This document shows positions 1 to 58,428 of a stretch of DNA of 58,428 nt, piece after piece. Under the pieces are notes generated by a model. It was not told the origin of the DNA, did no database searches, and was given only the letters and a program-made list of their open reading frames with translations. The position numbers were made by a program, and so were the translations under genes. The stretch lies in IMG/VR virus record IMGVR_UViG_3300045988_116781, one strand, 5' to 3'. Each line of letters starts with the position of its first letter. Positions within the stretch are counted from its first letter, which is position 1. This stretch comes from a virus.

Positions 1-137
1 ACAACGGAATTGCTGTGTCCGGGAACGAGAACCAAATCACGGTAATATCCGAGAAGTTCATCAGCCTGCTGGAGAAGAAAGACGAGCAGATAAATCGGCT
101 GCTCGACATCATAGAGGGTTTCAGAAAAGACAAGTGA
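1..137 (+). CDS. 3' portion of an XRE-like HTH regulator gene that starts at 58163 and crosses the circular junction
   Basis: Frame 3 is open from nt 3 to the TGA at 135-137 and reads NGIAVSGNENQITVISEKFISLLEKKDEQINRLLDIIEGFRKDK. Nt 1-55 duplicate 58374-58428, so this continues the ORF at 58163..58428. Confidence 0.6.
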   Translation, partial: NGIAVSGNENQITVISEKFISLLEKKDEQINRLLDIIEGFRKDK

Positions 138-1337: not shown

Positions 1338-2483
1338 TCAATCCAATATTTGGGGTATCTGCTGGACGGCTTTCTGCTTGTTCTTGTCGAGTACCTTTGC
1401 GTAAATCTGTGTTGTGGAGAGGTCCCGGTGTCCGAGAAGTTTCGACACGGTGTAGATGTCAGTGCCAAGGTCGAGCATCATTACGGCGAATGTATGCCGT
1501 CCGCAATGGAATGTTATCTCCTTGTCTATCCCTGCTCTCAGTACCCACCGCTTTATGGCTTCGTTGGTACACGATGGGGAATATATGTCCCCGAATACGC
1601 TTTCATTCGGTTTACCTCTCTTGCCCATAAGTTCCGCTGCCTGCGGCGTGATGTCAAGATATTCAAGACCTCCCGTCTTTTTCTGCTTGAAGATGATCCG
1701 GGTATATTCGCCCTGTTCGTGTACCTCTCCCCACGTCAGTTTCAGTATGTCGCTCCGGCGAAGTCCCGTCAGACACGAGAACAGGAACGCTTTTTTGATG
1801 TTTGGATATTCGCATTCGGTTTGCGCCAGCTTCTTCAACTCGTCAATAGTAAGGTACATTCTCGTTCCCTCCTCGGCCTTGAAGCCCTCTATGCCACGTA
1901 TCGGGTTGTGGGCGATAATCCTTTCATCGAAAGCCTGATTGAGACACGCACGCAGCTTGTTGAAGTAGCTGAGCTTTGAGTTCCTCGCCAAAGGTTTGTC
2001 CTTTGTCCGTTCCCGTTTGTCATTCTCCCATGCATTAGCCTTGTTGTCGAGATAGTCCCTGAAACCCTGTACCCATTCGGGGGTAATCTTTGCAAAGGTT
2101 ATCTTGTGGTTTTTCTCGTACTTCTCCAAATGCTTCAGGCACGAGTACCAGTTGCCCCAATTACCCCTGCTTTCAGTACCCAGCCGCTTTTCGCACATCG
2201 CACGGTAATAATCGAAGAAAAGGGTATCTTCCTTATATGCGGACTTGAAGCCATATTCGTCATTCTGTATCTCGACCGTGCGCTTTGCCCGGATGGCTTC
2301 CGCAAGCTGCATCGTCTGTCGGTTCTGCTCCTTGTCGGCACGTGTATGTTCCGGCACAAGGTAGAGTTTCAGGTATTCGTATTTTCGTCCCTCTTTCGTG
2401 AACACGTCAAGGTACAGGCTGGTATTTCCTGATGGCATGAGCCGCTTCCGCAGGTTTACCCGTTCTTTCTTTTTTCTATCCAT
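1338..2483 (-). CDS. int: tyrosine recombinase / phage integrase
   Basis: 381 aa. The C-terminal catalytic region reads ...CLTGLRRSD...HCGRHTFAVMMLDLGTDIYTVSKLLGHRDLSTTQIYAKV, which contains the R..HxxR..H..Y signature. Confidence 0.93.
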   Translation of the reverse strand: MDRKKKERVNLRKRLMPSGNTSLYLDVFTKEGRKYEYLKLYLVPEHTRADKEQNRQTMQLAEAIRAKRTVEIQNDEYGFKSAYKEDTLFFDYYRAMCEKRLGTESRGNWGNWYSCLKHLEKYEKNHKITFAKITPEWVQGFRDYLDNKANAWENDKRERTKDKPLARNSKLSYFNKLRACLNQAFDERIIAHNPIRGIEGFKAEEGTRMYLTIDELKKLAQTECEYPNIKKAFLFSCLTGLRRSDILKLTWGEVHEQGEYTRIIFKQKKTGGLEYLDITPQAAELMGKRGKPNESVFGDIYSPSCTNEAIKRWVLRAGIDKEITFHCGRHTFAVMMLDLGTDIYTVSKLLGHRDLSTTQIYAKVLDKNKQKAVQQIPQILD

Positions 2484-4636: not shown

Positions 4637-5145
4637 TACTCCGAGAATGTTAGTGAGTTGATACGATTTTTCCATCCTTTCAGGAAGCGTGTCTGTGACG
4701 GATCCCGTTTGACGATGTTCTCCACGAACTCGATGCGCCTGCTGTGGATTTTGTCGAACAGGGTGCGCTGGTCGGCTGTATTGATTGCGGTAAGGGTATC
4801 GTTCCCGACAATGCCGTCCACTGCCACACCGAGAATTTTCTGCACCTGCTTGATTGAGGTTACGGTTCCCGAAGCCCAAGCCCAATCAACAACAATATCG
4901 GCTATTGATTGGTTGTTGATGTCGTCTGCTTTCCACTTGTCCCAAAATCCACACTTAAAGATGTGAAGCCATTGTTCATCTGTGATGTTCTTCAACTGTT
5001 CCACCGTGGCTTCCTTTCCGTAGAAGTTCCTGAATGTACCTATGGTGATACCCTTGTTCGTTGCTCCGCCTCTGTCCAGCGGATCATCAACGAAACCGCC
5101 CTCCCAGCGGAGGATAAACGGTTTCAATAGTTCTGCCTTTGCCAT
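4636..5145 (-). CDS. endolysin, glycoside hydrolase family 108-like with peptidoglycan-binding C-terminus
   Basis: 169 aa. The N-terminal ILRWEGGFVDDPLDRGGATNKGIT matches the GH108 signature. Confidence 0.8.
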   Translation of the reverse strand: MAKAELLKPFILRWEGGFVDDPLDRGGATNKGITIGTFRNFYGKEATVEQLKNITDEQWLHIFKCGFWDKWKADDINNQSIADIVVDWAWASGTVTSIKQVQKILGVAVDGIVGNDTLTAINTADQRTLFDKIHSRRIEFVENIVKRDPSQTRFLKGWKNRINSLTFSE

Positions 5146-5153
5146 ATTGATAG

Positions 5154-5444
5154 TTATTTGGAATTGTTAGTAGTGTTGTCTATTTTCTTTTTACGCTCGC
5201 TCAAAGCCTTGTTGATACCGCCTCCGGCCATGAAACCGCCGATACACAGCATGAACAGTCCCAAAGCGTCAAGGTCTGTTTTAAGGTAGCCGTTGGTACA
5301 AACGTCCCATACCAAACAGAAGCACACACAGAAGCCAATCAATGCACCTACTATGCTTGACAGCACGAGTGCGAAAGACTTGCTGCTGTCAAGACTGTTC
5401 GCTTTTATCAGACTTTTCAGATATTCCGTTATTCCCATCTTCAT
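5154..5444 (-). CDS. holin candidate
   Basis: 96 aa with two hydrophobic helices and a charged tail (SERKKKIDN). It lies directly upstream of the endolysin. Confidence 0.55.
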   Translation of the reverse strand: MKMGITEYLKSLIKANSLDSSKSFALVLSSIVGALIGFCVCFCLVWDVCTNGYLKTDLDALGLFMLCIGGFMAGGGINKALSERKKKIDNTTNNSK

Positions 5445-5877
5445 TTATGCTTGGATAATATTTGTCATATTCGTGGTTGGCGAGTTTGACGAGACGGCAA
5501 TAATCCCTCGGAGGCATACGTTTCAAACATTCGTCATCAGGACGCACACAGATATTGTGTTGTGCTTCCATGAGTTTCAGTTTCAATTCGTTGTTCTCAC
5601 GTACAAGTTCATTGTTCAGCCTTTCCAACTCGTGCTTGTCAGAATAGAGGTTGTCAATGCGCTGGTTCAGCTCGTTGATTTTCCTATCCTGCTGTTCGAT
5701 ACGTTGTTTCAGGCTGTCAACGAGCTGTCTCATAACGTTAAGCTCCTTTTCTTCAGCCTCTATGTTCTTGATACGCCGTTCAGGCTTCATGAAGAACAGG
5801 AACTTTATCAATCCTATGCCACCGAGTGATGATACCACAAGGACTATTATCTTGACTATCTCGTTCAATATTTCCAT
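5389..5877 (-). CDS. N-terminal TM plus coiled-coil protein (lysis-associated, i-spanin-like or regulator)
   Basis: 162 aa with a TM segment (IVKIIVLVVSSLGGIGLIKFLFF) followed by a long heptad-rich region. It is the first gene of the lysis cassette. Confidence 0.45.
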   Translation of the reverse strand: MEILNEIVKIIVLVVSSLGGIGLIKFLFFMKPERRIKNIEAEEKELNVMRQLVDSLKQRIEQQDRKINELNQRIDNLYSDKHELERLNNELVRENNELKLKLMEAQHNICVRPDDECLKRMPPRDYCRLVKLANHEYDKYYPSINEDGNNGISEKSDKSEQS

Positions 5878-5906
5878 GCCTGTAAATTGATATTCGTTTA
5901 TGCGTT

Positions 5907-5937
5907 CAAAGATACTATTAAAGTACTTAATAAGTAC
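5907..5937 (-). promoter_or_regulatory. candidate promoter with palindromic operator upstream of the lysis cassette
   Basis: The minus strand reads GTACTTATTAAGTAC (5923-5937), then 8 nt, then the -7 box TATCTTTG (5907-5914). This is about 30 nt upstream of the ATG at 5877. Confidence 0.45.
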
Positions 5938-5955
5938 GCTATTGCGGCAAAAAAA

Positions 5956-8900
5956 TCAGTTCGTAATCCCCAGCCAGTCGTTTATATTCAGTATAATGAA
6001 CATGAATGAACCGTCATTGCGACTTGCATCGTCACTTGTATTTACGGTTATATACGATGAATATCTGCCTATTACTGTAGCCTTAATCGGTGCTTCACTA
6101 CTGCCCTGAGAATATCCTAATCCAGTAACAATAGCGATACAGTCATTTGCCGAATTGAACCAAGTAGAACTGAAATTCACTCTATACTGACCTACCCCTG
6201 TCCTTGATACGCTCATGGTCGTTCCGTCAAAAGTCTTGTAGCTTATGGAGGTTCCCGAACTTGATCCGGTAACGATACCCATAGCAAGCGCATTGAGTTT
6301 ACGGCCATATCTTGATTCCGTCATAAGGTTTATCCTGTTGAGCACAATCCAGCCGTAGAACTGCGTGGATGTTCCGTAACCGATAAGCTCTACACATTCA
6401 CGGGACAGCCTCAGGTAGTTCTTTGATATTCCGTTCTCATAGAAATACTTTCCTGTCGGTGCCGTGTACTCAATCGTCCCCTGCGAGTATTGGCTTCCCC
6501 AGCGGTAATTCGTGATGCACATCCTACGTCCGCTCTGCTTCACGTCCCATTCCAAATTTCCATTCGTAATCCAGCCTCCGCCTACTGAAATGGTCGCTAC
6601 GTTATCGTGCGTGGACTGCATGCCTCCAACCACGATTGAGTCTGTCTCCTGTACGAAAGGATTTCGCAATGAACCTTGCAGTAAGACATCCTTAAATGTA
6701 CCTCCCTCGAAAACTGCATTACGTCCCTTTACGGTGCCGTCTTCGGTAGTTTGGAAGTTGCCGTTCTTCGAATGGATGTTCTCGACAAGCAGATTTTCAG
6801 TATCAATCAAAGAGTTCTTCAGGTAACCTCCCTCAATGATTGTTTCTTTCATCACGGCATCCTGTTTAAGCTGTTTGAAGTCACCGTTGATGAAATTGTT
6901 AAGGCTGCTGTCGTCCGTGTATTTTGAAGCCTTTACCCAATCAGATGCGTAATAACTCCCCGAAGCTCTTGCGGTTTTACACCGCATTATGTCTCCTGAT
7001 GTACCCTGTACCCACAAATCCCCGATATCGTATGGCGGATAAGGTGTCGATACAAACACACGTCTTTTGCTGTCAGCCGTATCCTGTGCCTGCCCTGCTT
7101 TGGCAAGTGCCTCTACTGTGGCCGTGTCCGTTATCTCGACCCAAGAATACGAGCTGCCCGATTTAGTCCACCGCCAGGAACGTCCTGTTTTCAGGTTTGT
7201 AAACGTATCATTCAGATGCTTGTTTTTCTCCTCTGTAGTGGTCCATTGAGATGCAGGAACATTCGATGTAGTAGGGTTGTACTCATAGAAGAAGCTCTCT
7301 ATTGCCCCGTCTATCTGTGATTGCAGACCGCCTACGGCTTCCACGAACTCCTGCGCCTGCGTGTCGATACGCTCGTTCAGCTCATCTTCCAAATCGCTGA
7401 CGTTCTTATCCGTTCCGTTTGTGCTCCTGAACCTTATGTTTCCTCCGATTATGGAGTTTGCCAAGTCGAAATACGTCTTTCCGTCAGCAGAAACAATCTT
7501 GTCTGTTGTGATACGTCCGGGCAGAACTTCGGTAAAGCCGTACAGCGTAGCAAAGGAACGTTCCCCGTCATACTCGCTGTTGAGCACACCAACAAGCAGA
7601 TGGTAATATCCCGATACGTCATTCATGCCTATTGCGGTCGGAGAAAGCACAAATTCTCCCGTACCCGTGCCTGTCGGCACTTTGGCATAGAAGTAATACT
7701 TCTGTGATATTTGGTCGAGTACGGGGCTTGTATAGCCGCTCATAGTCCAATGCTTGTACGTGTTCTTATCACGGCTTGAGGTTATGGTGTCGATGCCGAG
7801 CGTCATGTGCTGCAATACGGTTGCAGGGGCTATGAGCTGCTTCGTTTCCTGATTGTACGTGATGTGGTACTGTATCGGGTTAAGGCTGCTGTCCACGAAG
7901 CGGAACTGCAAACTCTCGTCCCCGACAAGCATGGCCATAGTCTGTACCGCAATCGGATTGATACTGTTCGTGAAGTTCTCGAGTAAAGCCTGCTCCAACA
8001 TGTCGATTGTCTCCAAAGAGTCCCTGAACCTGCGTTTCGTGAACTGAATGATTTTCTTTTGGTTCTCATCCACAATAACGTTACCGTTCTCCAACTCGTT
8101 CAGAGTGGAGTTAAGGCTCTTTCCCGATACGCTGTTTGACAACTCCACCGTAGGAGCATACGGAGAAGTGAGATAGTCCTTTATGCCCGTTATCCTGATT
8201 TTCACACCGTCAGGCGCAAACTGATTGTCCGTAAACAGAACGTAACCGCCCACAACGAGCTTGCCGCCGACCTTTAGCCAGTTACGTTTTGCCCACATGC
8301 CCTGCAACTCTCCGCTGAACGTGAATTTGGTGTCCTCGTTCTCGTACAGATACCGGGCGGCTTCACGGAACATATCCCACGATGCGCCCGTCTTTGTTGC
8401 GTTGTCACAGATGTAGGCATCAGGAAGCATACATCCGAATATGGCGTAAGTGTCGCCCTCGTGAGGTATATACACGCCTCCGGGCATGGTCAGCCCGTCT
8501 ATCTCTTGCGGGACAATCTCAAACCGTCTTTCGGCGTGGTTGTACTTCAACTCGAAAGCCTTGTCATCTCCGGCCAGCATACCGCTCTGAAAGATGATGG
8601 TCATGTTTTCGCCCTCGATGAGATAGTCATTGTAGTTCAGGTTTTCGGGTATGGTGTTGTCTATGATGTCATAGAAGTTGTTGGCTTCATCTATGACCTC
8701 CACTTTCGTAACCTTGCCGACACGGGACGGATATATCTCCGAACAGTCCAGACTGTCCTCATTGTTGTAGAGTACAGCCTTATCCTGCCTCCTGATTGAA
8801 TAACCGTCAGCATCTGAAATGTAGGTGCGACCCTCGTATTCCAAGGTCTGCGATTTCGGAAGAAGAAGCTCTGCAGATCCGTACTTTGAGCGGTCTATGT

Positions 8901-9543: not shown

Positions 9544-10382
9544 TATCTGCTTTCGCTGTAAAGTTCTACATAGATGCCTACCAAGTCGGCGAGAGGCTGG
9601 TAAACGGGAATTTCAGTATTACGGGTACACAGGTAGGTAATGCCGTCCTGGATGTAATACTTGCCCTGCTCCAGCTCCATATTGTTGTTGTACGGTATCG
9701 GGTCGTCAGCAGTACCGGATGCGGTCTCTACGATTTCCGTGTACAGGCTTTCAGTACCTGTTCCCGGTCGCCATTGTTCCTGTACGGTGTGCTGCTGGAG
9801 GACTTTCCACAGCCTGCCGTCACATTGCATCTTGTCGCCCTGCTTGACCTCCTTTCCGATGAGCGTTTCCCATTCGGGATATACGCTCTTTACTGACAGG
9901 GCATCGTTGTCGGTCAGGCTCATCGTGTTCACGGTAAGCATGAGCAGCTTTGCGATGTCTGCCATTCGTGGAGCGGATGCGGTTTTGGGTGTTCCCGGAT
10001 CAATCTCCAAATCCTCCTTTACCATGCTCTTGACTGACGAGACGAAAGCAAGGTATTCCTCGTATTCGGATACCACTCCAGCATCGGACAGTACGCCCTG
10101 CTGGTAGGCGTTGAATTGGTTGATGAGAGCCAGTTCCGCTTCTGCCGAATAGTCGGAGCGTATGACCGCTTCAACACACTTGCCGTATTCGGGCTTCCCG
10201 TGAATGGTGACCTCACGGCACGAATACTGAACTTTCTTTACCGATGATACAGGTTCTTCTTTCCCCTCCTGCATCATTTCATGCTGGACCTCTTCTTCCT
10301 GAATGTCCCAACGGTACAGGTAATTCCCGTTACCTACTGCCTCCAATTTAGGCGGCTTTGTGTCGTAATACGTACGTGTCAT
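9543..10382 (-). CDS. hypothetical tail-module protein
   Basis: 279-aa ORF. Its stop overlaps the start of the 1195-aa gene. No recognisable motif. Confidence 0.45.
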   Translation of the reverse strand: MTRTYYDTKPPKLEAVGNGNYLYRWDIQEEEVQHEMMQEGKEEPVSSVKKVQYSCREVTIHGKPEYGKCVEAVIRSDYSAEAELALINQFNAYQQGVLSDAGVVSEYEEYLAFVSSVKSMVKEDLEIDPGTPKTASAPRMADIAKLLMLTVNTMSLTDNDALSVKSVYPEWETLIGKEVKQGDKMQCDGRLWKVLQQHTVQEQWRPGTGTESLYTEIVETASGTADDPIPYNNNMELEQGKYYIQDGITYLCTRNTEIPVYQPLADLVGIYVELYSESR

Positions 10383-11385
10383 AAAATTCTGCTTTTAAGA
10401 TTGTTTTTAGTAAATGTCTCGAATTGCTGTATTTCGCCCAACCGAACCAGCTGCACAGAGCCTGACGGTAGTCCTCCAGCTTTACGTTGGCTTTCCTGTT
10501 CCATTTCGCCGCCGCACGGCAGAAGTTCTGCTTAATGCTTTTCCTGATAAGCGTCTGGTTGTGGTAAAATACGAAGCCTATAAAGTCCAATCCCCGGCCG
10601 TGCCTGTCGGAACGGTTATCCCCGATAGGAAACACTTGCTCGTTCCCTTTCAGGTTCAACTTCAAGTCTTTCATGTATTCCCTTATGTCTGCAAGAAGCC
10701 TGTGAAGCTCTTCTTTGCTCGATGCAAGGAATACCATGTCGTCCGCATAGCGGAAGTAGTATTTCACTCTCTTTACCTCTTTAACCCAATGGTCGAAATA
10801 TGCGAGATACAGGTTTGCGAAATACTGTGAAAGATAGTTGCCGATAGGCACTCCGGCTGCGCTGTCGATTATCTCGTCAAGAAGCCAAAGCGTGTCCTTG
10901 CACTTGATTTTCTTCCTGACGATTGACTTCAACACATCATGGTCGATTGACGGGTAGAACTTCCGAATGTCTATTTTCAGGCAGTACCGTGTGTTCTCAC
11001 GGTCTTTCATAGCCTGCTTGACCTTGCGCATCGCTCCATGTATGCCACGCTTCTTGATGCAGCTGTACGTGTCGGTAGTGAATATGGATACCCATATCGG
11101 CTCCAGCACGTTCATTATGGCATGGTGCAGGATGCGGTCGGGATAATAAGGCAGTCGGAAAATCTCACGTTCCTTTGGCTCGAATATGGTAAACGTCTCA
11201 TATTCCGAGTTCCTGAATGATTTGGTACGCAACATCTCATGCAAAGCAATGATGTTCGCTTCCCTGTTCCTGTCATGGAAACGCACACCGTATGTGTTCG
11301 CCTTACCACGTCTTGCCTTTTCGTCAGCGAGACGGAGGTTTTCCAGCGAGATGATTTTTTCGTATAAGTTGCCAAGTCTTTTCAT
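10348..11385 (-). CDS. DGR-type reverse transcriptase
   Basis: 345 aa. It has the RT motifs YADD (RYADDMVFL) and the DGR-typical IGNYLSQYFANLYL. A TR lies 132 nt upstream. Confidence 0.92.
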   Translation of the reverse strand: MKRLGNLYEKIISLENLRLADEKARRGKANTYGVRFHDRNREANIIALHEMLRTKSFRNSEYETFTIFEPKEREIFRLPYYPDRILHHAIMNVLEPIWVSIFTTDTYSCIKKRGIHGAMRKVKQAMKDRENTRYCLKIDIRKFYPSIDHDVLKSIVRKKIKCKDTLWLLDEIIDSAAGVPIGNYLSQYFANLYLAYFDHWVKEVKRVKYYFRYADDMVFLASSKEELHRLLADIREYMKDLKLNLKGNEQVFPIGDNRSDRHGRGLDFIGFVFYHNQTLIRKSIKQNFCRAAAKWNRKANVKLEDYRQALCSWFGWAKYSNSRHLLKTILKAEFYDTYVLRHKAA

Positions 11386-11517: not shown

Positions 11518-11633
11518 AAAGTATAGGTGAGAGCTGATGTTCGCATTCGTATTCGAGGGGGTGTTATTCGAGTTCGCATAGCTGAAGCCTGCATTCGCCC
11601 TGTTATTCGCATTACCGCTGAACAGCACACCAC
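11518..11633 (-). repeat. DGR template repeat (TR)
   Basis: This 116-bp segment is homologous to 12084-12199 and, in part, to 52000-52075. Every mismatch falls at a coding-strand adenine of this copy. It is rich in AAY codons (NANNRANAGFSYANSNNTPSNTNAN). Confidence 0.9.
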
Positions 11634-11662: not shown

Positions 11663-12022
11663 TTACTCGAAATAGTACCTGTTCCCGTTACTCCGCAATG
11701 TTACCCTACGTGGGAACTTGCCCATCTCCTTAATCTTTTTCAGGACATACAGGATGTCCGCTGACCCCGTAAAGAATTTCTTTGCATCGGATTCCGGGCT
11801 GTCTTTGTCGGGCTTGATTTTGACCAAAGTCTGACCTTTTATCCCTTTCGCCTTGCTGAAACGTGTCGGGACTTCCTCGATGAAGTCCGTTACCCAAAAC
11901 GTGGTGTTCACGATTTTGGACTGTGTCGTCTCTGGGCAGTTGAAACTTCTGCTGTTCTCATCACGGGGGATTTGCAGGAAATCCAAAGAACCGTCATCTT
12001 CCAAATTGTTGTTCATGTTCAT
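11663..12022 (-). CDS. hypothetical protein at the DGR accessory (Avd) position
   Basis: 119-aa ORF between the target gene and the TR. I could not recognise Avd-like four-helix-bundle features. Confidence 0.5.
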   Translation of the reverse strand: MNMNNNLEDDGSLDFLQIPRDENSRSFNCPETTQSKIVNTTFWVTDFIEEVPTRFSKAKGIKGQTLVKIKPDKDSPESDAKKFFTGSADILYVLKKIKEMGKFPRRVTLRSNGNRYYFE

Positions 12023-12071: not shown

Positions 12072-13508
12072 TTACGCTGGGATAAAGCAAAGGCGAGAGC
12101 CGAAGTTCGCATACGTATACGAGGGGGCGTTATACGAGTACGCAGAGCCGAAGCCCGCAGTCGCCCCGTAATTCGCAGAACCGCCGAACAGCACACCACG
12201 CAATGTTTCAGTAGTGGGTATGTTCGTGTAATGGTAATCACAGAAATAGGTAGTAGAACCTCCACCTACAACGGACGGCATGATTTCTCCGCCCTCTCCG
12301 AAAATTACCTCCTTTACATAGGATTCCGTTCGGGCTTCATTTCCGACATGGGACATGTTGTTATAGTTGCTGTCGTTGAAATATTCCGGATTGTCCGTGA
12401 CAAATACCTTGCTTAAACCGTCCCCGGTCGGTTCATTCGGAGAGATGCGCACATTGATACCGTCAGTCCATTGCCACAGATGTCCGAAAGGATTTTCGAT
12501 ACCTCTGTAACGTGGCACTTTGACGGTAAGCCCTGCGCTGTCGTATTCCTCCGGCATTGAGAACTCCACTTCGCCCGTACCGTTACCCAACTCGTCGGTA
12601 TATCCGCACGGAATGAATGGATAGTAGCCATTGAACGCACTCCATTTAGAACTGTTAAGATTGGTCACACCATCTCCGAGACCGCCCTGCGCATATCCGT
12701 TGCTGTCCTTTGAAGCGTTGAACGCCTTTTGAGAGTTCAGGGTTGCGTATTCGATGATAAAGAGCCAAAACAGGTCTTTCTGAATGTCATACGTCATGCA
12801 GTTCCACTCCTTTGTTGCGGATTTGCGCTTGCGTGCATAAGTGCGAAAGTTTGTACGTGAAATTGACGTTGCAGGTCTTCCAATCAGGGTACGGTAAGTT
12901 CCGTCCCATTCCGCATTGTTGTTACCTCCCCTGTAATCCGCAGTCTCATTGACAACGGAGCATAGCGTGGTCGTTGAACGCTGTACGGTGGCTTCATAGG
13001 CGGATACGTATTTCTTCCTTACCTGATGATAGCCGGGCAGGGGATATTCCGAAATCTTGACCCTGCGCTTGTTGCCCTCGGTCTCGAACTTGCGGTAGTA
13101 CATTGGAAGTTCCACCATGACTTGACCACGTGAACCGTCACGGGTGTTGCCTCTCCAATCGGCAGGATTGAGGTATTCCGTAACAGTGCCATCATCCGCC
13201 AAAAGACAGCCTTTCATCCGGCTTTGGATAGGCAGGCTCTTGTGCAGCTCCATGTTCCCGATACGGGTGCATTCGGGAGACGATACGGTGACATCGTACT
13301 CGATGCCATAGGCGCAGTTCTCTTCAAGGTAGGGCATAAAGGTAGCGAGAGCAGCCTTTTTGCTTTCCCCGTCCGTGTCAAGCACCTCACACAATAGTTC
13401 AAAGGGGTTTGTACCCTCCACTTCCGGCAGATCCGCCAGACGTTTTCCGTTCTCGAAAGCCTCGATGATTGAACGCACCTTGCTTTCTTCTTCGCTTGTT
13501 AATGCCAT
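12072..13508 (-). CDS. DGR target protein 1 (tail fibre / receptor-binding candidate with C-terminal variable region)
   Basis: 478 aa. The C-terminal GVLFGGSANYGATAGFGSAYSYNAPSYTYANFGSRLCFIPA is encoded by VR1. An upstream GIENPFGHLWQWTDG-type motif is typical of C-type-lectin/FGE-fold DGR targets. Confidence 0.85.
   Translation of the reverse strand: MALTSEEESKVRSIIEAFENGKRLADLPEVEGTNPFELLCEVLDTDGESKKAALATFMPYLEENCAYGIEYDVTVSSPECTRIGNMELHKSLPIQSRMKGCLLADDGTVTEYLNPADWRGNTRDGSRGQVMVELPMYYRKFETEGNKRRVKISEYPLPGYHQVRKKYVSAYEATVQRSTTTLCSVVNETADYRGGNNNAEWDGTYRTLIGRPATSISRTNFRTYARKRKSATKEWNCMTYDIQKDLFWLFIIEYATLNSQKAFNASKDSNGYAQGGLGDGVTNLNSSKWSAFNGYYPFIPCGYTDELGNGTGEVEFSMPEEYDSAGLTVKVPRYRGIENPFGHLWQWTDGINVRISPNEPTGDGLSKVFVTDNPEYFNDSNYNNMSHVGNEARTESYVKEVIFGEGGEIMPSVVGGGSTTYFCDYHYTNIPTTETLRGVLFGGSANYGATAGFGSAYSYNAPSYTYANFGSRLCFIPA
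12084..12199 (-). repeat. DGR variable repeat 1 (VR1)
   Basis: 116 bp aligned to the TR without gaps. All 19 mismatches are at TR adenines on the coding strand. Confidence 0.9.
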
Positions 13509-51926: not shown

Positions 51927-52514
51927 TTAGCCAAGATTGAAGTACGACCACAGGTCGATGAACTGCTTGCCGCAATACGTGGCGAGTTCTTCGCTCTTTA
52001 AGCAAAGGCGAGAGCCGACGGACGCAGTCGTAGTCGAGGGGGCGTGATACGAGTACGCAGAGCCGAAGCCCGCATAGTGTTCTGAAACTCTGTCCCGTAC
52101 GTCCATCATACGGCGTTCTTTCTTTTCCTCTACGCTCATTTCGTCAAGCTCTTTTTGTGTGTAGAGCCAAAACCAAGGATACCACCTTACCTCGTCTTTG
52201 GTGAACTGTGGCTCCCAGCCCTCGTTTAGAGCTGCTACGACAATCCTTAGCTGGAGATATGCTTCAAGGTTCGGAGACAGATTTTCTCCTAAATTCCATT
52301 CTTTTACGAACGGGTGTTCGCTGCCAAGTTCACGGCAAGCGTCATTGAATGTCCTTACACGAGCCATGATGTTCTTCTGCTGGAACATATCCTTTCCGAA
52401 TATTGCTTCAAGCATCTTTTTCGTTGCCTTATCCGCTTCGTTGTAGTTCTTGATAAGGTTCTCTTTTGAAATTTTTACTTCACTCATTGTTACTGAAATT
52501 TTGATGTTGTCCAT
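51927..52514 (-). CDS. DGR target protein 2 (small early-region protein carrying VR2)
   Basis: 195 aa. The segment AGFGSAYSYHAPSTTTASVGSRLCL is encoded by a 76-bp copy of the TR. 25 further residues follow the VR. Confidence 0.7.
   Translation of the reverse strand: MDNIKISVTMSEVKISKENLIKNYNEADKATKKMLEAIFGKDMFQQKNIMARVRTFNDACRELGSEHPFVKEWNLGENLSPNLEAYLQLRIVVAALNEGWEPQFTKDEVRWYPWFWLYTQKELDEMSVEEKKERRMMDVRDRVSEHYAGFGSAYSYHAPSTTTASVGSRLCLKSEELATYCGKQFIDLWSYFNLG
52000..52075 (-). repeat. DGR variable repeat 2 (VR2, remote, 5'-truncated relative to the TR)
   Basis: 76 bp aligned without gaps to TR 11519-11594. All 16 mismatches are at TR coding-strand adenines. Its 3' boundary sequence is the same as that of VR1. 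Confidence 0.8.
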
Positions 52515-52950
52515 AATTCTTTCTGTTTGATTGTTTCTTTCTCCATTCTTTGTCTGGGTCAGGTATTTCGGTATTCAGGAACTCACGGGCGAAATCCCTA
52601 ACGTTGTCCACATAGGCCGAGAATGTCACCGTGTCCATCGTGGCGGTAGAGTGGGGAAACTCCACAACCTCGCCTGTCTGCTTGTTCACGGCACTTTCCT
52701 TTGTGAACTTCGATTTGCAGAACTCATGCACCTGCTCTGTGTTGGTGAAATCGTCCCATCCGGCATCTATCAGAGCATCGAGCAGGATAGGATAGACACA
52801 CCCCCAAAGCCATGCGTTCTGGTCATTGCTCCGGTTTCCCCGTACACGCTTCACGGTCAGCATATAGATACCGTCAGTGCATCCCCTGAAAGCCTCGTAA
52901 ACCCTACGCAGGTCAAACCGTCCGCCTTTCTTGATTACCTGTAAAATCAT
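52480..52950 (-). CDS. NinB/Orf-like recombination mediator candidate
   Basis: 156 aa. NRSNDQNAWLWGCVYPIL resembles the lambda NinB motif NRSLDQNRKLWACL. Confidence 0.45.
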   Translation of the reverse strand: MILQVIKKGGRFDLRRVYEAFRGCTDGIYMLTVKRVRGNRSNDQNAWLWGCVYPILLDALIDAGWDDFTNTEQVHEFCKSKFTKESAVNKQTGEVVEFPHSTATMDTVTFSAYVDNVRDFAREFLNTEIPDPDKEWRKKQSNRKNYGQHQNFSNNE

Positions 52951-58162: not shown

Positions 58163-58428
58163 ATGAGCGGCGAAGAAGTAAAAGAAAAACTCAAGCAGGA
58201 GGGCATAGTATTCTCGGAATTAGCCCGTTTGCTCGGTTACGACAGCGACCAGCGGCTGCACTCGGCATTGAAAGCCAACGATGTCAGGAGCGGCCTTATC
58301 GAGGATATTGCCCGTGCGATAAATAAAAGTGTTTCTTGGTTCTACCCAGAGACCACCAAAACTGTTGCTACGGACAACGGAATTGCTGTGTCCGGGAACG
58401 AGAACCAAATCACGGTAATATCCGAGAA
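58163..58428 (+). CDS. 5' portion of the XRE-like HTH regulator (continues at nt 56-137 after the 55-nt overlap)
   Basis: MSGEEVKEKLKQEGIVFSELARLLGYDSDQRLHSALKANDVRSGLIEDIARAINKSVSWFY is HTH-like. The ORF runs off the window end in frame with 3..137. Confidence 0.6.
   Translation, partial: MSGEEVKEKLKQEGIVFSELARLLGYDSDQRLHSALKANDVRSGLIEDIARAINKSVSWFYPETTKTVATDNGIAVSGNENQITVISE
58374..58428. repeat. 55-nt terminal overlap, identical to nt 1-55
   Basis: Exact identity read directly from both ends. An ORF is continuous across the join. Confidence 0.95.

What the first reader, a model, noticed from the sequence alone, without database searches (positions are those of the whole stretch)
51927..52514. 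Second, remote DGR variable repeat inside a small early-region protein
Nt 52000-52075 align without gaps to the template repeat (TR 11519-11594). All 16 mismatches fall at positions that are adenine on the TR coding strand, and none fall at other bases. This is the signature of DGR mutagenic retrohoming.

The 3' boundary sequence is identical to that of VR1 and differs from the TR. VR1 and VR2 also differ from each other at many of the A-derived positions, which suggests independent diversification.

Four features are unusual:
- The locus is about 40.5 kb from the RT/TR in this linear view, or about 18 kb around the circle. It sits in the replication/recombination module, not among the tail genes.
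- The host protein is only 195 aa and has no obvious structural role.
- Homology to the TR stops abruptly at 52075/52076, so only the 3' two-thirds of the TR is used.
- 25 residues follow the VR, whereas most described targets, including VR1 here, carry the VR at the extreme C-terminus.

A phage that diversifies a non-structural early protein could be diversifying something other than a receptor-binding protein, for example an anti-defence or host-factor-binding protein.
Basis: partly seen in the sequence, partly recalled or inferred. Interest (0 to 1): 0.85.

Follow-up and report, generated by a model that had tools for sequence, protein, structure and literature searches.

The report
Second DGR target in early phage gene

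Summary
Window 52000-52075 (minus strand) aligns without gaps to TR 11519-11594. There are 16 mismatches, and all fall at template adenines (P about 2e-11). The same 17-nt 3' element as in VR1 is present.

VR2 is actively diversified. Eleven contigs of near-identical phages carry 10 different VR2 sequences. Among them, 16 of 23 adenine columns vary and 0 of 53 other columns vary. In five more distant phages, the non-adenine differences of each TR are copied into both VR1 and VR2.

The host ORF (186/195 aa) belongs to phrog_11581. This is a very large family of about 190-aa proteins from Bacteroides temperate phages. It always sits in the early recombination, replication or anti-restriction region, and it is hypervariable exactly at the adenine-derived codons.

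The same family is the distal second target in phage Versailles and in BI-TP1/LoVEphage, which I infer to be Benler's Quimbyvirus. Benler et al. 2021 and Dahlman et al. 2025 have already described such distal, non-structural second VRs.

New here are a different phage lineage and a use of only the 3' 76 nt of the TR that is conserved across that lineage. No C-type lectin fold could be detected. The function remains unknown.

Verdict: real, well supported, and a new member of a known kind.

The parts
52000..52075 (-). VR2, the remote variable repeat. It is 76 nt (77 if 52076 is counted), covers codons 147-172 of the host ORF, and is homologous to the 3' two-thirds of the TR.
   Evidence: 16 of 16 mismatches lie at TR adenines. 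Ten distinct variants occur in 11 related contigs, with 16 of 23 A columns variable and 0 of 53 non-A columns variable.
52000..52016 (-). IMH-like 3' end of VR2, GGCTCTCGCCTTTGCTT. It is identical to the 3' end of VR1 and differs from the TR at four positions. It is not rewritten.
   Evidence: The four A-derived positions in this stretch never vary among 10 VR2 variants. The motif GG[CT]TCTCGCCTTTGCTT is invariant in 60 family loci. TRs of other lineages differ from it, including at one non-A position.
51927..52514 (-). Host gene of VR2: 195 aa from M1, or more likely 186 aa from M10 at 52487, whose ATG overlaps the end of the upstream NinB/Orf gene. It is a member of phrog_11581.
   Evidence: phrog_11581 matches with E = 1.1e-63 over residues 10-194. 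At least 3,899 homologous 90%-identity clusters were found. 3,023 representatives at 50% identity match. Many homologues start at MSEVKIS.
11519..11632 (-). Template repeat (TR), lying between the accessory ORF and the RT gene. It has 32 adenines over 114 nt. The AAY codons cannot give stop codons.
12085..12198 (-). VR1, the adjacent full-length variable repeat at the C-terminus of the tail-module target protein.
   Evidence: 19 of 19 mismatches to the TR lie at adenines over 114 nt.
12072..13508 (-). Target protein 1 (478 aa), phrog_5302 'tail protein'.
   Evidence: E = 3.7e-145.
11663..12022 (-). Accessory ORF (119 aa) in the position of avd, between VR1 and the TR. It belongs to phrog_19665.
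   Evidence: E = 1.6e-38. There is no Pfam Avd match.
10348..11385 (-). DGR reverse transcriptase (345 aa). It carries the IGNYLSQ motif ([ILV]GxxxSQ) and the YADD catalytic motif.
   Evidence: Pfam RVT_1 matches with E = 7e-20. The motifs were read in the translation.
52480..52950 (-). Upstream neighbour: NinB/Orf recombination mediator. It overlaps the start of the VR2 gene, which places the gene in the same early operon.
   Evidence: phrog_72 matches with E = 2.6e-18. The same synteny is found in phage Versailles and in L001/L003.

Best explanation
**What it is.** VR2 is an active second target of the phage's single diversity-generating retroelement (DGR).

**Mechanism.** The TR (11519-11632) is transcribed. 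The RT (10348-11385), probably with the small accessory protein, copies it into cDNA in which template adenines are randomised. That cDNA replaces the homologous stretch upstream of the GC-rich 3' element GGCTCTCGCCTTTGCTT. This element is present at the end of both VR1 and VR2 but is altered in the TR, which gives directionality.

VR2 shares only the 3' 76 nt with the TR, so only that part can be rewritten. The effectively variable zone is the first ~57 nt, and the last 17 nt are never changed.

**Consequence.** About 10 codons are rewritten (residues 152, 154, 156-158, 161-163, 165, 166). This gives 3e9 to 1e10 possible peptides and can never create a stop codon.

**The protein.** It has about 190 aa and no signal peptide. 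Its N-terminal two-thirds are predicted with confidence to be helical, and two helices follow the VR. It belongs to phrog_11581, a family that is the recurrent distal DGR target of at least three lineages of Bacteroides temperate phages. It is always encoded among early recombination, replication or anti-restriction genes.

**Shown.** The TR/VR relation, the adenine-only variation between genomes, the concerted evolution with the TR, family membership and synteny.

**Inferred.** The retrohoming steps themselves, by analogy with the DGR of Bordetella phage BPP-1. Also that the protein acts inside the cell as a variable binding protein in phage-host (or phage-phage) conflict. I give roughly 0.3 to that specific functional guess. 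The confidence value given applies to the claim that VR2 is an active DGR target.
For: **In the window.**
- All mismatches are A-specific, with P = 2e-11.
- Only TR, VR1 and VR2 exist in the window.

**Between closely related genomes.**
- There are 10 distinct VR2 sequences in 11 near-identical contigs. 16 of 23 A columns vary and 0 of 53 non-A columns vary; Fisher P = 2e-11.
- The flanking gene sequence varies at about 10% of columns.
- In 17 proteins of at least 89% identity, only the A-derived codons differ.

**In more distant phages.**
- Five phages with RTs 63-85% identical have the same 76-nt VR2. It shows 47 A-site mismatches and 3 non-A mismatches, two of the latter in the IMH.
- Lineage-specific non-A differences of each TR are mirrored in both VRs.
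- Phage Versailles and BI-TP1 have homologous small proteins with full-length VRs and A-only mismatches.
- All 8 GenBank phage genomes that hold a family member have an RT on record: three places per genome for the VR query in six of them, Versailles, and BT-TP2 according to PMC12694917.

**Family-wide.**
- Entropy peaks at exactly the A-containing codons.
- No stop codon can be generated.
- The RT carries the IGNYLSQ and YADD motifs.
- Early-operon synteny holds in three lineages.
Against: - No read-level data and no experiment were available. Activity is inferred from differences between genomes.
- No conserved hairpin or cruciform was found 3' of VR1 or VR2. Such an element is required in BPP-1.
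- The accessory ORF is not recognisably Avd.
- No C-type lectin fold could be detected. Pfam, NCBIfam and PDB HMM searches were negative. The AlphaFold models have pLDDT below 50 over the VR, and Foldseek finds no PDB match.
- The intracellular, conflict-related role rests only on gene neighbourhood and the lack of a signal peptide.
Confidence: 0.9

Rival explanations
1. The small protein is a virion (tail-tip or receptor-binding accessory) protein that happens to be encoded outside the structural module. On this reading, VR2 diversification serves host-range switching just as VR1 does.
For: - The same TR has to yield functional binding surfaces in both proteins.
- The two families share the 39 VR-encoded columns.
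- GenBank annotates the Versailles homologue as 'tail protein'.
- phrog_5302 (tail) matches residues 145-175 weakly.
Against: - The similarity to tail proteins is confined to the VR itself. The 'tail' annotation derives from that stretch alone.
- In three unrelated genome architectures the gene lies in the early recombination, replication or anti-restriction operon. It overlaps NinB here and in Versailles, and in BI-TP1 it lies on the strand opposite the structural genes.
- It has no signal peptide and no detectable structural domain.
Confidence: 0.15
2. VR2 is a fossil: an old retrohoming or recombination product that is no longer diversified. The differences seen would then be historical.
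For: - Only 76 of 114 TR nucleotides are shared.
- No 3' hairpin was found.
- One close relative (L010) carries an indel and frameshift in VR2.
Against: - Nearly every near-identical genome has its own VR2, while the 53 non-A positions and the 75 nt downstream are invariant.
- The TR and VR2 share lineage-specific non-A changes in five diverged phages. This requires continuing information flow from TR to VR2.
- 90%-identity clusters of the family hold up to 37,449 distinct sequences.
Confidence: 0.04
3. The variation arises by gene conversion or recombination between VR1 and VR2, or between co-infecting phages, and not by mutagenic reverse transcription.
For: VR1 and VR2 share 67 of 76 positions and an identical 17-nt 3' end, which could support homologous exchange.
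Against: - Variation is restricted to template-adenine columns and includes all three substitution types.
- VR2 differs from the VR1 of the same genome at 9 A sites, and likewise in the five other phages.
- Recombination would not spare all 53 non-A columns while the flanks vary at 10%.
Confidence: 0.02

Closest known systems
Distal second DGR target of Quimbyvirus / LoVEphage (ORF 80/84 of Benler et al. 2021, PMC8008677); represented here by BI-TP1 gp84 and the LoVEphage homologues
   Same: - It is a homologous protein, 37-40% identical over 97% of the length, in the same PHROG-type family.
- The VR lies in the same place, followed by the same conserved tail (xELAxY[CF]GxQF...W).
- It has A-only mismatches to a TR that also serves a tail-module target.
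- It is encoded far from the RT among non-structural genes.
   Different: - There the VR is full length (~113 nt), the gene is on the opposite strand to the DGR, and it sits next to a TIGR02757/MutY-like nuclease, several methyltransferases and a tRNA ligase.
- Here the phage has a different architecture (58 kb), the gene follows NinB/RecT/MBL-hydrolase, and only the 3' 76 nt of the TR are used.
- Equating LoVEphage/BI-TP1 with Quimbyvirus is my inference. It rests on the matching description and on Dahlman 2025 citing both papers for LoVEphage.
Gut prophages with 'double variable repeat DGRs' (Dahlman et al. 2025, PMC12629997)
   Same: [quoted passage not shown] They were found by searching with the TR using BLASTn.
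   Different: That paper gives no analysis of the target protein family, its fold or partial TR use. Whether this window's phage is one of the four species was not determined.
Bordetella phage BPP-1 DGR (mtd, avd, TR, brt), the mechanistic prototype
   Same: It shares adenine-specific TR-to-VR information transfer, a GC-rich 3' element that distinguishes VR from TR (IMH versus IMH*), AAY-rich template codons, and an RT with the [ILV]GxxxSQ motif.
   Different: - BPP-1 has a single adjacent target, which is a tail-fibre C-type lectin protein with the VR at the extreme C-terminus, a canonical Avd and a 3' hairpin/cruciform.
- Here there are two targets. One is remote and non-structural by context.
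- No recognisable Avd, hairpin or C-type lectin fold was found.
Non-adjacent targets of prophage-borne DGRs in the survey of Wu et al. 2018 (PMC5758913)
   Same: In that survey, 45 of 372 DGRs have non-adjacent targets. For phage-associated DGRs these lie within 50 kb, that is, inside the same prophage.
   Different: It is a survey-level description only. This protein family was not singled out.

Membership tests
DGR variable repeat (target of mutagenic retrohoming) | A TR/VR pair whose differences are confined to template adenines | tested here: met
   16 of 16 mismatches lie at A and 0 of 53 non-A positions differ. The same holds in five other phages, with 47 A-site and 3 non-A mismatches.
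DGR variable repeat (target of mutagenic retrohoming) | A DGR-type reverse transcriptase on the same replicon | tested here: met
   ORF 10348-11385 matches RVT_1 with E = 7e-20. The IGNYLSQ and YADD motifs are present in the translation. The contig is circular.
DGR variable repeat (target of mutagenic retrohoming) | A 3' element (IMH) at the end of the VR that differs from the TR (IMH*) and is not itself rewritten | tested here: met
   GGCTCTCGCCTTTGCTT is present in both VR1 and VR2. It is invariant in 10 VR2 variants and in 60 family loci, while the TRs differ, including at a non-A position.
DGR variable repeat (target of mutagenic retrohoming) | Variation between or within populations confined to adenine-derived positions | tested here: met
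   There are 10 distinct VR2 sequences in 11 contigs, with 16 of 23 A columns and 0 of 53 non-A columns variable. This is a comparison between genomes. Read-level data are not available.
DGR variable repeat (target of mutagenic retrohoming) | A hairpin or cruciform just downstream of the VR, as required in BPP-1 | tested here: not met
   Folding of the VR2 flank gives z = -1.6. The VR1 flank has a 7-bp hairpin in this phage only. No conserved hairpin is seen across 25 related VR1 flanks or the VR2 flanks. This feature is not universal among DGRs.
DGR variable repeat (target of mutagenic retrohoming) | An accessory protein (Avd or HRDC) in the cassette | tested here: inconclusive
   A conserved 119-aa ORF (phrog_19665) occupies the avd position, but it has no Pfam, NCBIfam or PADLOC match.
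C-type lectin-fold DGR variable proteins (Mtd, TvpA, TaqVP, FGE-sulfatase/DUF1566 type) | The VR forms the last strands of a C-type lectin fold | tested here: inconclusive
   - Pfam gives no match for any of 70 members.
- PDB profile searches give no match.
- Two AlphaFold models (pLDDT 74-75) have the VR below 50 and no PDB Foldseek match.
- Homology to the tail target is limited to the 39 VR columns.
- Only motif-level hints exist: TFxDACxxLG, then LPxx-helix, and WGG in the LoVEphage subfamily.
phrog_11581 (small phage proteins of unknown function) | A full-length match to the family profile | tested here: met
   E = 1.1e-63, with residues 10-194 matching profile positions 1-192 of 200.
Distal non-structural second DGR target of Quimbyvirus/LoVEphage type (Benler 2021) | Homology to the LoVEphage/BI-TP1 distal target, which itself has a VR matching that phage's TR | tested here: met
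   tblastn gives 37-40% identity over 97% of the length. The BI-TP1 VR differs from its TR by 13 A-only mismatches. The Quimbyvirus genome itself was not available for a direct check.

The most novel reading that the evidence does not exclude
The phrog_11581 proteins may be a new, largely alpha-helical VR-display scaffold rather than a C-type lectin fold. They would be made early inside the infected cell or the lysogen, and the phage would use the DGR on them as a pre-emptive 'antibody-like' repertoire against variable intracellular targets, for example host defence proteins or factors of competing phages. The same template would then serve two unrelated scaffolds at once: the tail protein outside the cell and this binder inside it. 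In this lineage only the 3' two-thirds of the template would be grafted.
Probability: 0.2. Interest if true: 0.8.

Novelty: new member of a known kind. Interest (0 to 1): 0.42.

Why it matters
Almost all experimentally understood phage DGRs diversify receptor-binding tail proteins. A second, distal target encoded among early recombination and anti-restriction genes suggests that gut phages also hypermutate an intracellular binding protein. That would be a new arena for targeted hypermutation.

This analysis does not discover the phenomenon, which Benler 2021 and Dahlman 2025 noted. It does add four things:
- The target is one coherent and very large protein family. It has thousands of 90%-identity clusters, 3,023 representatives at 50% identity, and single clusters holding up to 37,449 variants.
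- The family is shared by at least three different Bacteroides phage lineages.
- It has no detectable C-type lectin fold.
- One clade stably uses only part of the template.

Together these define a concrete, abundant and culturable system for asking what a non-structural DGR target does. Phage Versailles, the LoVEphage relatives BI-TP1 and PV4-TP1, and BT-TP2 are cultured isolates or inducible prophages.

Tried and rejected
- **Megablast of the region against GenBank phages:** no match. The phage has no close sequenced relative there. tblastn was needed instead.
- **Fold assignment:** two AlphaFold runs used 121 and then 70 more diverse sequences. Three Foldseek searches and three PDB HMM searches followed. 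Pfam, NCBIfam and PADLOC scans were also run. None gave a known fold or domain. BFVD returned only uncharacterised phage proteins.
- **A truncated copy of the tail target's lectin domain:** rejected, because profile-profile homology covers only the 39 VR-encoded columns.
- **A conserved 3' hairpin or cruciform:** none found.
- **Family members in DGR-less phages:** some 50%-identity representatives (for example P0442, P0448, P0403) lack VR-like composition. They have no close relatives in GenBank phages or IMG/VR, so their context could not be examined.
- **RT co-occurrence in IMG/VR:** this could be checked on only six contigs, because only the top 80 loci of each scan are returned and flanks are limited to 10 kb.
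- **Further VRs in the window:** none.
- **Chance, fossil and gene-conversion explanations:** considered and rejected (see the rival explanations).

Full report
**1. The observation**

All genes concerned are on the minus strand. A canonical DGR cassette lies at 10.3-13.5 kb:
- a target gene, 12072-13508 (478 aa, phrog_5302 'tail protein');
- a 119-aa accessory ORF, 11663-12022;
- the TR, 11519-11632;
- the RT, 10348-11385, which matches RVT_1 and carries the IGNYLSQ and YADD motifs.

VR1 (12085-12198) differs from the TR at 19 positions, all of them template adenines.

The claimed VR2 (52000-52075) aligns without gaps to TR 11519-11594 with 60 of 76 identities. All 16 mismatches are at adenines, and none of the 53 other positions differ. 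The hypergeometric P is 2.3e-11. A 60/76 match by chance anywhere in the window is expected about 1e-17 times.

Homology stops at 52076/52077. A scan of both strands finds no fourth copy. VR2 is in frame, in the same frame as VR1, at residues 147-172 of ORF 51927-52514.

The window is a circular assembly with a 55-nt terminal overlap, giving a genome of 58,373 bp with an integrase at 1338-2483.

**2. Is VR2 being diversified?**

*Close relatives, DNA level.* I collected VR2 from eleven contigs of near-identical phages: the window, L001-L003, L007, L008 and five metagenome contigs found with an exact-flank pattern.
- They hold ten different VR2 sequences.
- 16 of the 23 adenine columns vary.
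- None of the 53 other columns varies. Fisher P = 2e-11.
- The seven adenine columns that never vary are the four inside the 3' 17 nt (the IMH), two that are fixed as G, and one that remains A.

In a four-genome alignment of the whole gene, about 10% of columns outside the VR vary (61 of 606). Within the VR, only 12 adenine columns vary.

*Close relatives, protein level.* Seventeen sequences of at least 89% identity differ essentially only at residues 152, 154, 156-158, 161-163 and 165-166.

*More distant phages.* Five phages whose RTs are 63-85% identical to this one carry the same 76-nt VR2 with the same 5' boundary.
- Between them they show 47 adenine mismatches and 3 non-adenine mismatches. 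Two of the latter lie in the last six nucleotides.
- Wherever their TRs differ from this phage's TR at non-adenine positions, both their VR1 and their VR2 carry the same change.
- This concerted evolution requires continuing information flow from the TR to VR2.

*The 3' element.* GG[CT]TCTCGCCTTTGCTT is invariant in 60 family loci, while the corresponding TR ends vary. This is the expected IMH/IMH* relation.

**3. The host protein**

*Family size.* The ORF is a full-length member of phrog_11581 (E = 1e-63, residues 10-194).
- The likelier start is M10 at 52487. Its ATG overlaps the end of the upstream NinB/Orf gene, and many homologues start there.
- At least 3,899 clusters at 90% identity match the window protein.
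- At least 3,509 match the Versailles homologue, and 363 match the BI-TP1 homologue. The sets were not checked for overlap.
- A full HMM scan of a library of 50%-identity representatives gives 3,023 hits, 319 of them below 1e-30.
- Single 90% clusters hold 1,129, 11,135, 14,127 and 37,449 distinct sequences. That is what a hypervariable patch in an abundant phage produces.

*Conservation pattern.* The family alignment shows a conserved helical N-terminal part. It then shows a WYPWF motif, an acidic helical insert, the hypervariable patch AGF[GA]xAxSxxAPSxxxAxxGSRLCLKS, and a conserved tail of about 25 residues, xELAxY[CF]GxQFIxLWxDF. Column entropy peaks exactly at codons that contain TR adenines. 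The residues after the VR are therefore a family feature, not an oddity of this phage.

*Fold.* This remains unassigned.
- Pfam, NCBIfam, PADLOC and PDB sequence and profile searches are all negative.
- Two AlphaFold2 models (mean pLDDT 74.5 and 75.1) are confident for residues 20-100 and 170-190, which are helical. They fall below 50 over the VR.
- Foldseek finds nothing in the PDB and only uncharacterised phage proteins in BFVD.
- Profile-profile comparison with the tail-target family matches only the 39 VR-encoded columns.
- Motif-level resemblance to C-type lectin/FGE domains exists: [IV]xT[FY]xDACxxLG, followed by an LPxx helix, and WGG in the LoVEphage subfamily. This is a lead, not a test.

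**4. Context and relatives**

*In the window and its close relatives.* Here and in L001/L003, the gene sits in a tight same-strand operon: HTH, SbcC-like ATPase, RecT, MBL hydrolase, a 120-aa ORF, NinB, the VR2 gene, phrog_12688, DUF2303, replisome organiser, helicase, SNF2/methylase, SSB and VRR-NUC.

*Phage Versailles (ON453897).* It has the same synteny. Its homologue carries a full-length VR of about 116 nt with adenine-only mismatches to a TR that lies next to a tail target and an RT more than 40 kb away.

*BI-TP1, a LoVEphage relative.*
- The homologue lies on the opposite strand to the DGR.
- It sits next to a TIGR02757 nuclease-like protein, several methyltransferases and a tRNA ligase.
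- Its VR is full length, with 13 adenine-only mismatches.
- This is exactly the neighbourhood Benler et al. 2021 described for the distal, 'non-structural' second target of Quimbyvirus.
- Dahlman et al. 2025 cite Benler et al. and Van Espen et al. jointly for LoVEphage.

*DGR co-occurrence.* All eight GenBank phage genomes that hold a family member also carry a DGR.

**5. Mechanism**

By analogy with the BPP-1 DGR (established knowledge), TR RNA is reverse-transcribed with random misincorporation opposite adenines. The cDNA then replaces the VR upstream of the IMH.

Both VRs carry the same IMH, so one cDNA pool can serve both. They nevertheless differ at 9 adenine sites here and in every other phage examined, so homing events at the two sites are independent.

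VR2 shares only 76 nt with the TR, so the 5' junction of cDNA integration must fall inside that stretch. Codon 152, only 15 nt from the boundary, varies between relatives. Short homology is therefore sufficient. This agrees with what is reported for BPP-1 (my recollection of Guo et al. 2008, not checked here).

The variable codons allow 2.9e9 to 1.2e10 peptide variants and can never yield a stop codon.

The protein has no signal peptide or hydrophobic segment (read directly from the sequence) and is co-transcribed with early genes. I therefore infer an intracellular variable-binding role in phage-host or phage-phage conflict, as Benler and Dahlman proposed for their cases. This is inference only. 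A virion role is not excluded.

**6. Comparison with what is known, and verdict**

Non-adjacent targets within prophages are documented (Wu et al. 2018). Distal non-structural second VRs in Bacteroides phages are documented too (Benler 2021; Dahlman 2025), and the LoVEphage-type target is a homologue of this protein. Roux et al. 2021 note that their survey could not see remote targets, so such cases are probably under-counted.

Three points are new here:
- a further phage lineage;
- the recognition that one large family (phrog_11581) is the recurrent distal target across lineages;
- the absence of a detectable lectin fold, together with clade-wide use of only the 3' two-thirds of the TR.

The finding is real and well supported, but it is a new member of a known kind. 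The open question, the function of this protein, is interesting and now experimentally approachable.

Noticed in passing
window 1-55 and 58374-58428: The first 55 nt are repeated exactly at the end of the window, so this is a circular assembly with a true length of 58,373 bp. A 381-aa integrase ORF lies at 1338-2483 (-), so the element is a temperate phage.
   Followed up: partly
L010 (IMGVR_UViG_3300045988_153028), about 10440-10520; also P0370, P0409, P0427, P0451, P0505: Several family members, including a 95%-identical relative of the window gene, have an indel and frameshift inside the VR. These are either assembly errors across a polymorphic VR or real inactivated copies.
   Followed up: no
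window 11663-12022 (-): The ORF in the avd position of the cassette (119 aa, phrog_19665) has no match to Avd or to any Pfam, NCBIfam or PADLOC family. It may be a different kind of DGR accessory protein. Versailles and BI-TP1 have no comparable ORF between target and TR.
   Followed up: partly
window 52480-52514 (-): The annotated start (M1, 52514) overlaps the NinB/Orf gene by 35 nt. The ATG of M10 (52487) overlaps the last codons of NinB (AATGAGTGA), which suggests translational coupling and a 186-aa product.
   Followed up: partly
P0442, P0448, P0403, P0478, P0493, P0499 (50%-identity representatives): Some distant family members keep the conserved tail (ELAxYCGKQF...) but lack the Ser/Tyr/Asn/Ala-rich VR-like composition. 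They may be non-diversified versions of the scaffold, but their genomic context could not be retrieved.
   Followed up: partly
L130 (TR about 2780-2855) compared with L128, L139 and the window TR: One lineage's TR has only 13 adenines in the 76-nt stretch, against 19-23 in the others, with G where the others have A. This could be erosion of the template's mutagenic capacity.
   Followed up: no
cluster of P0001: P0512, P0517, P0521: Three listed 'members' of the 90%-identity cluster are in fact the neighbouring NinB/Orf protein. This is presumably a clustering artefact linked to the overlapping gene calls.
   Followed up: no
L167 (BI-TP1) 4713-6256 (-): The BI-TP1 RT is annotated as a short 816-nt ORF followed by small overlapping ORFs. 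This is consistent with Benler's report that the Quimbyvirus RT is split over three frames, yet both VRs show adenine-only mismatches to the TR.
   Followed up: no
L001 17352-17420 and L003 18891-18992: In two relatives, a 489-aa gene with a sodium:solute symporter (PF00474) hit follows the VRR-NUC gene at the end of the replication module. It is either a host gene at a prophage border or phage cargo. The corresponding window region was not examined.
   Followed up: no
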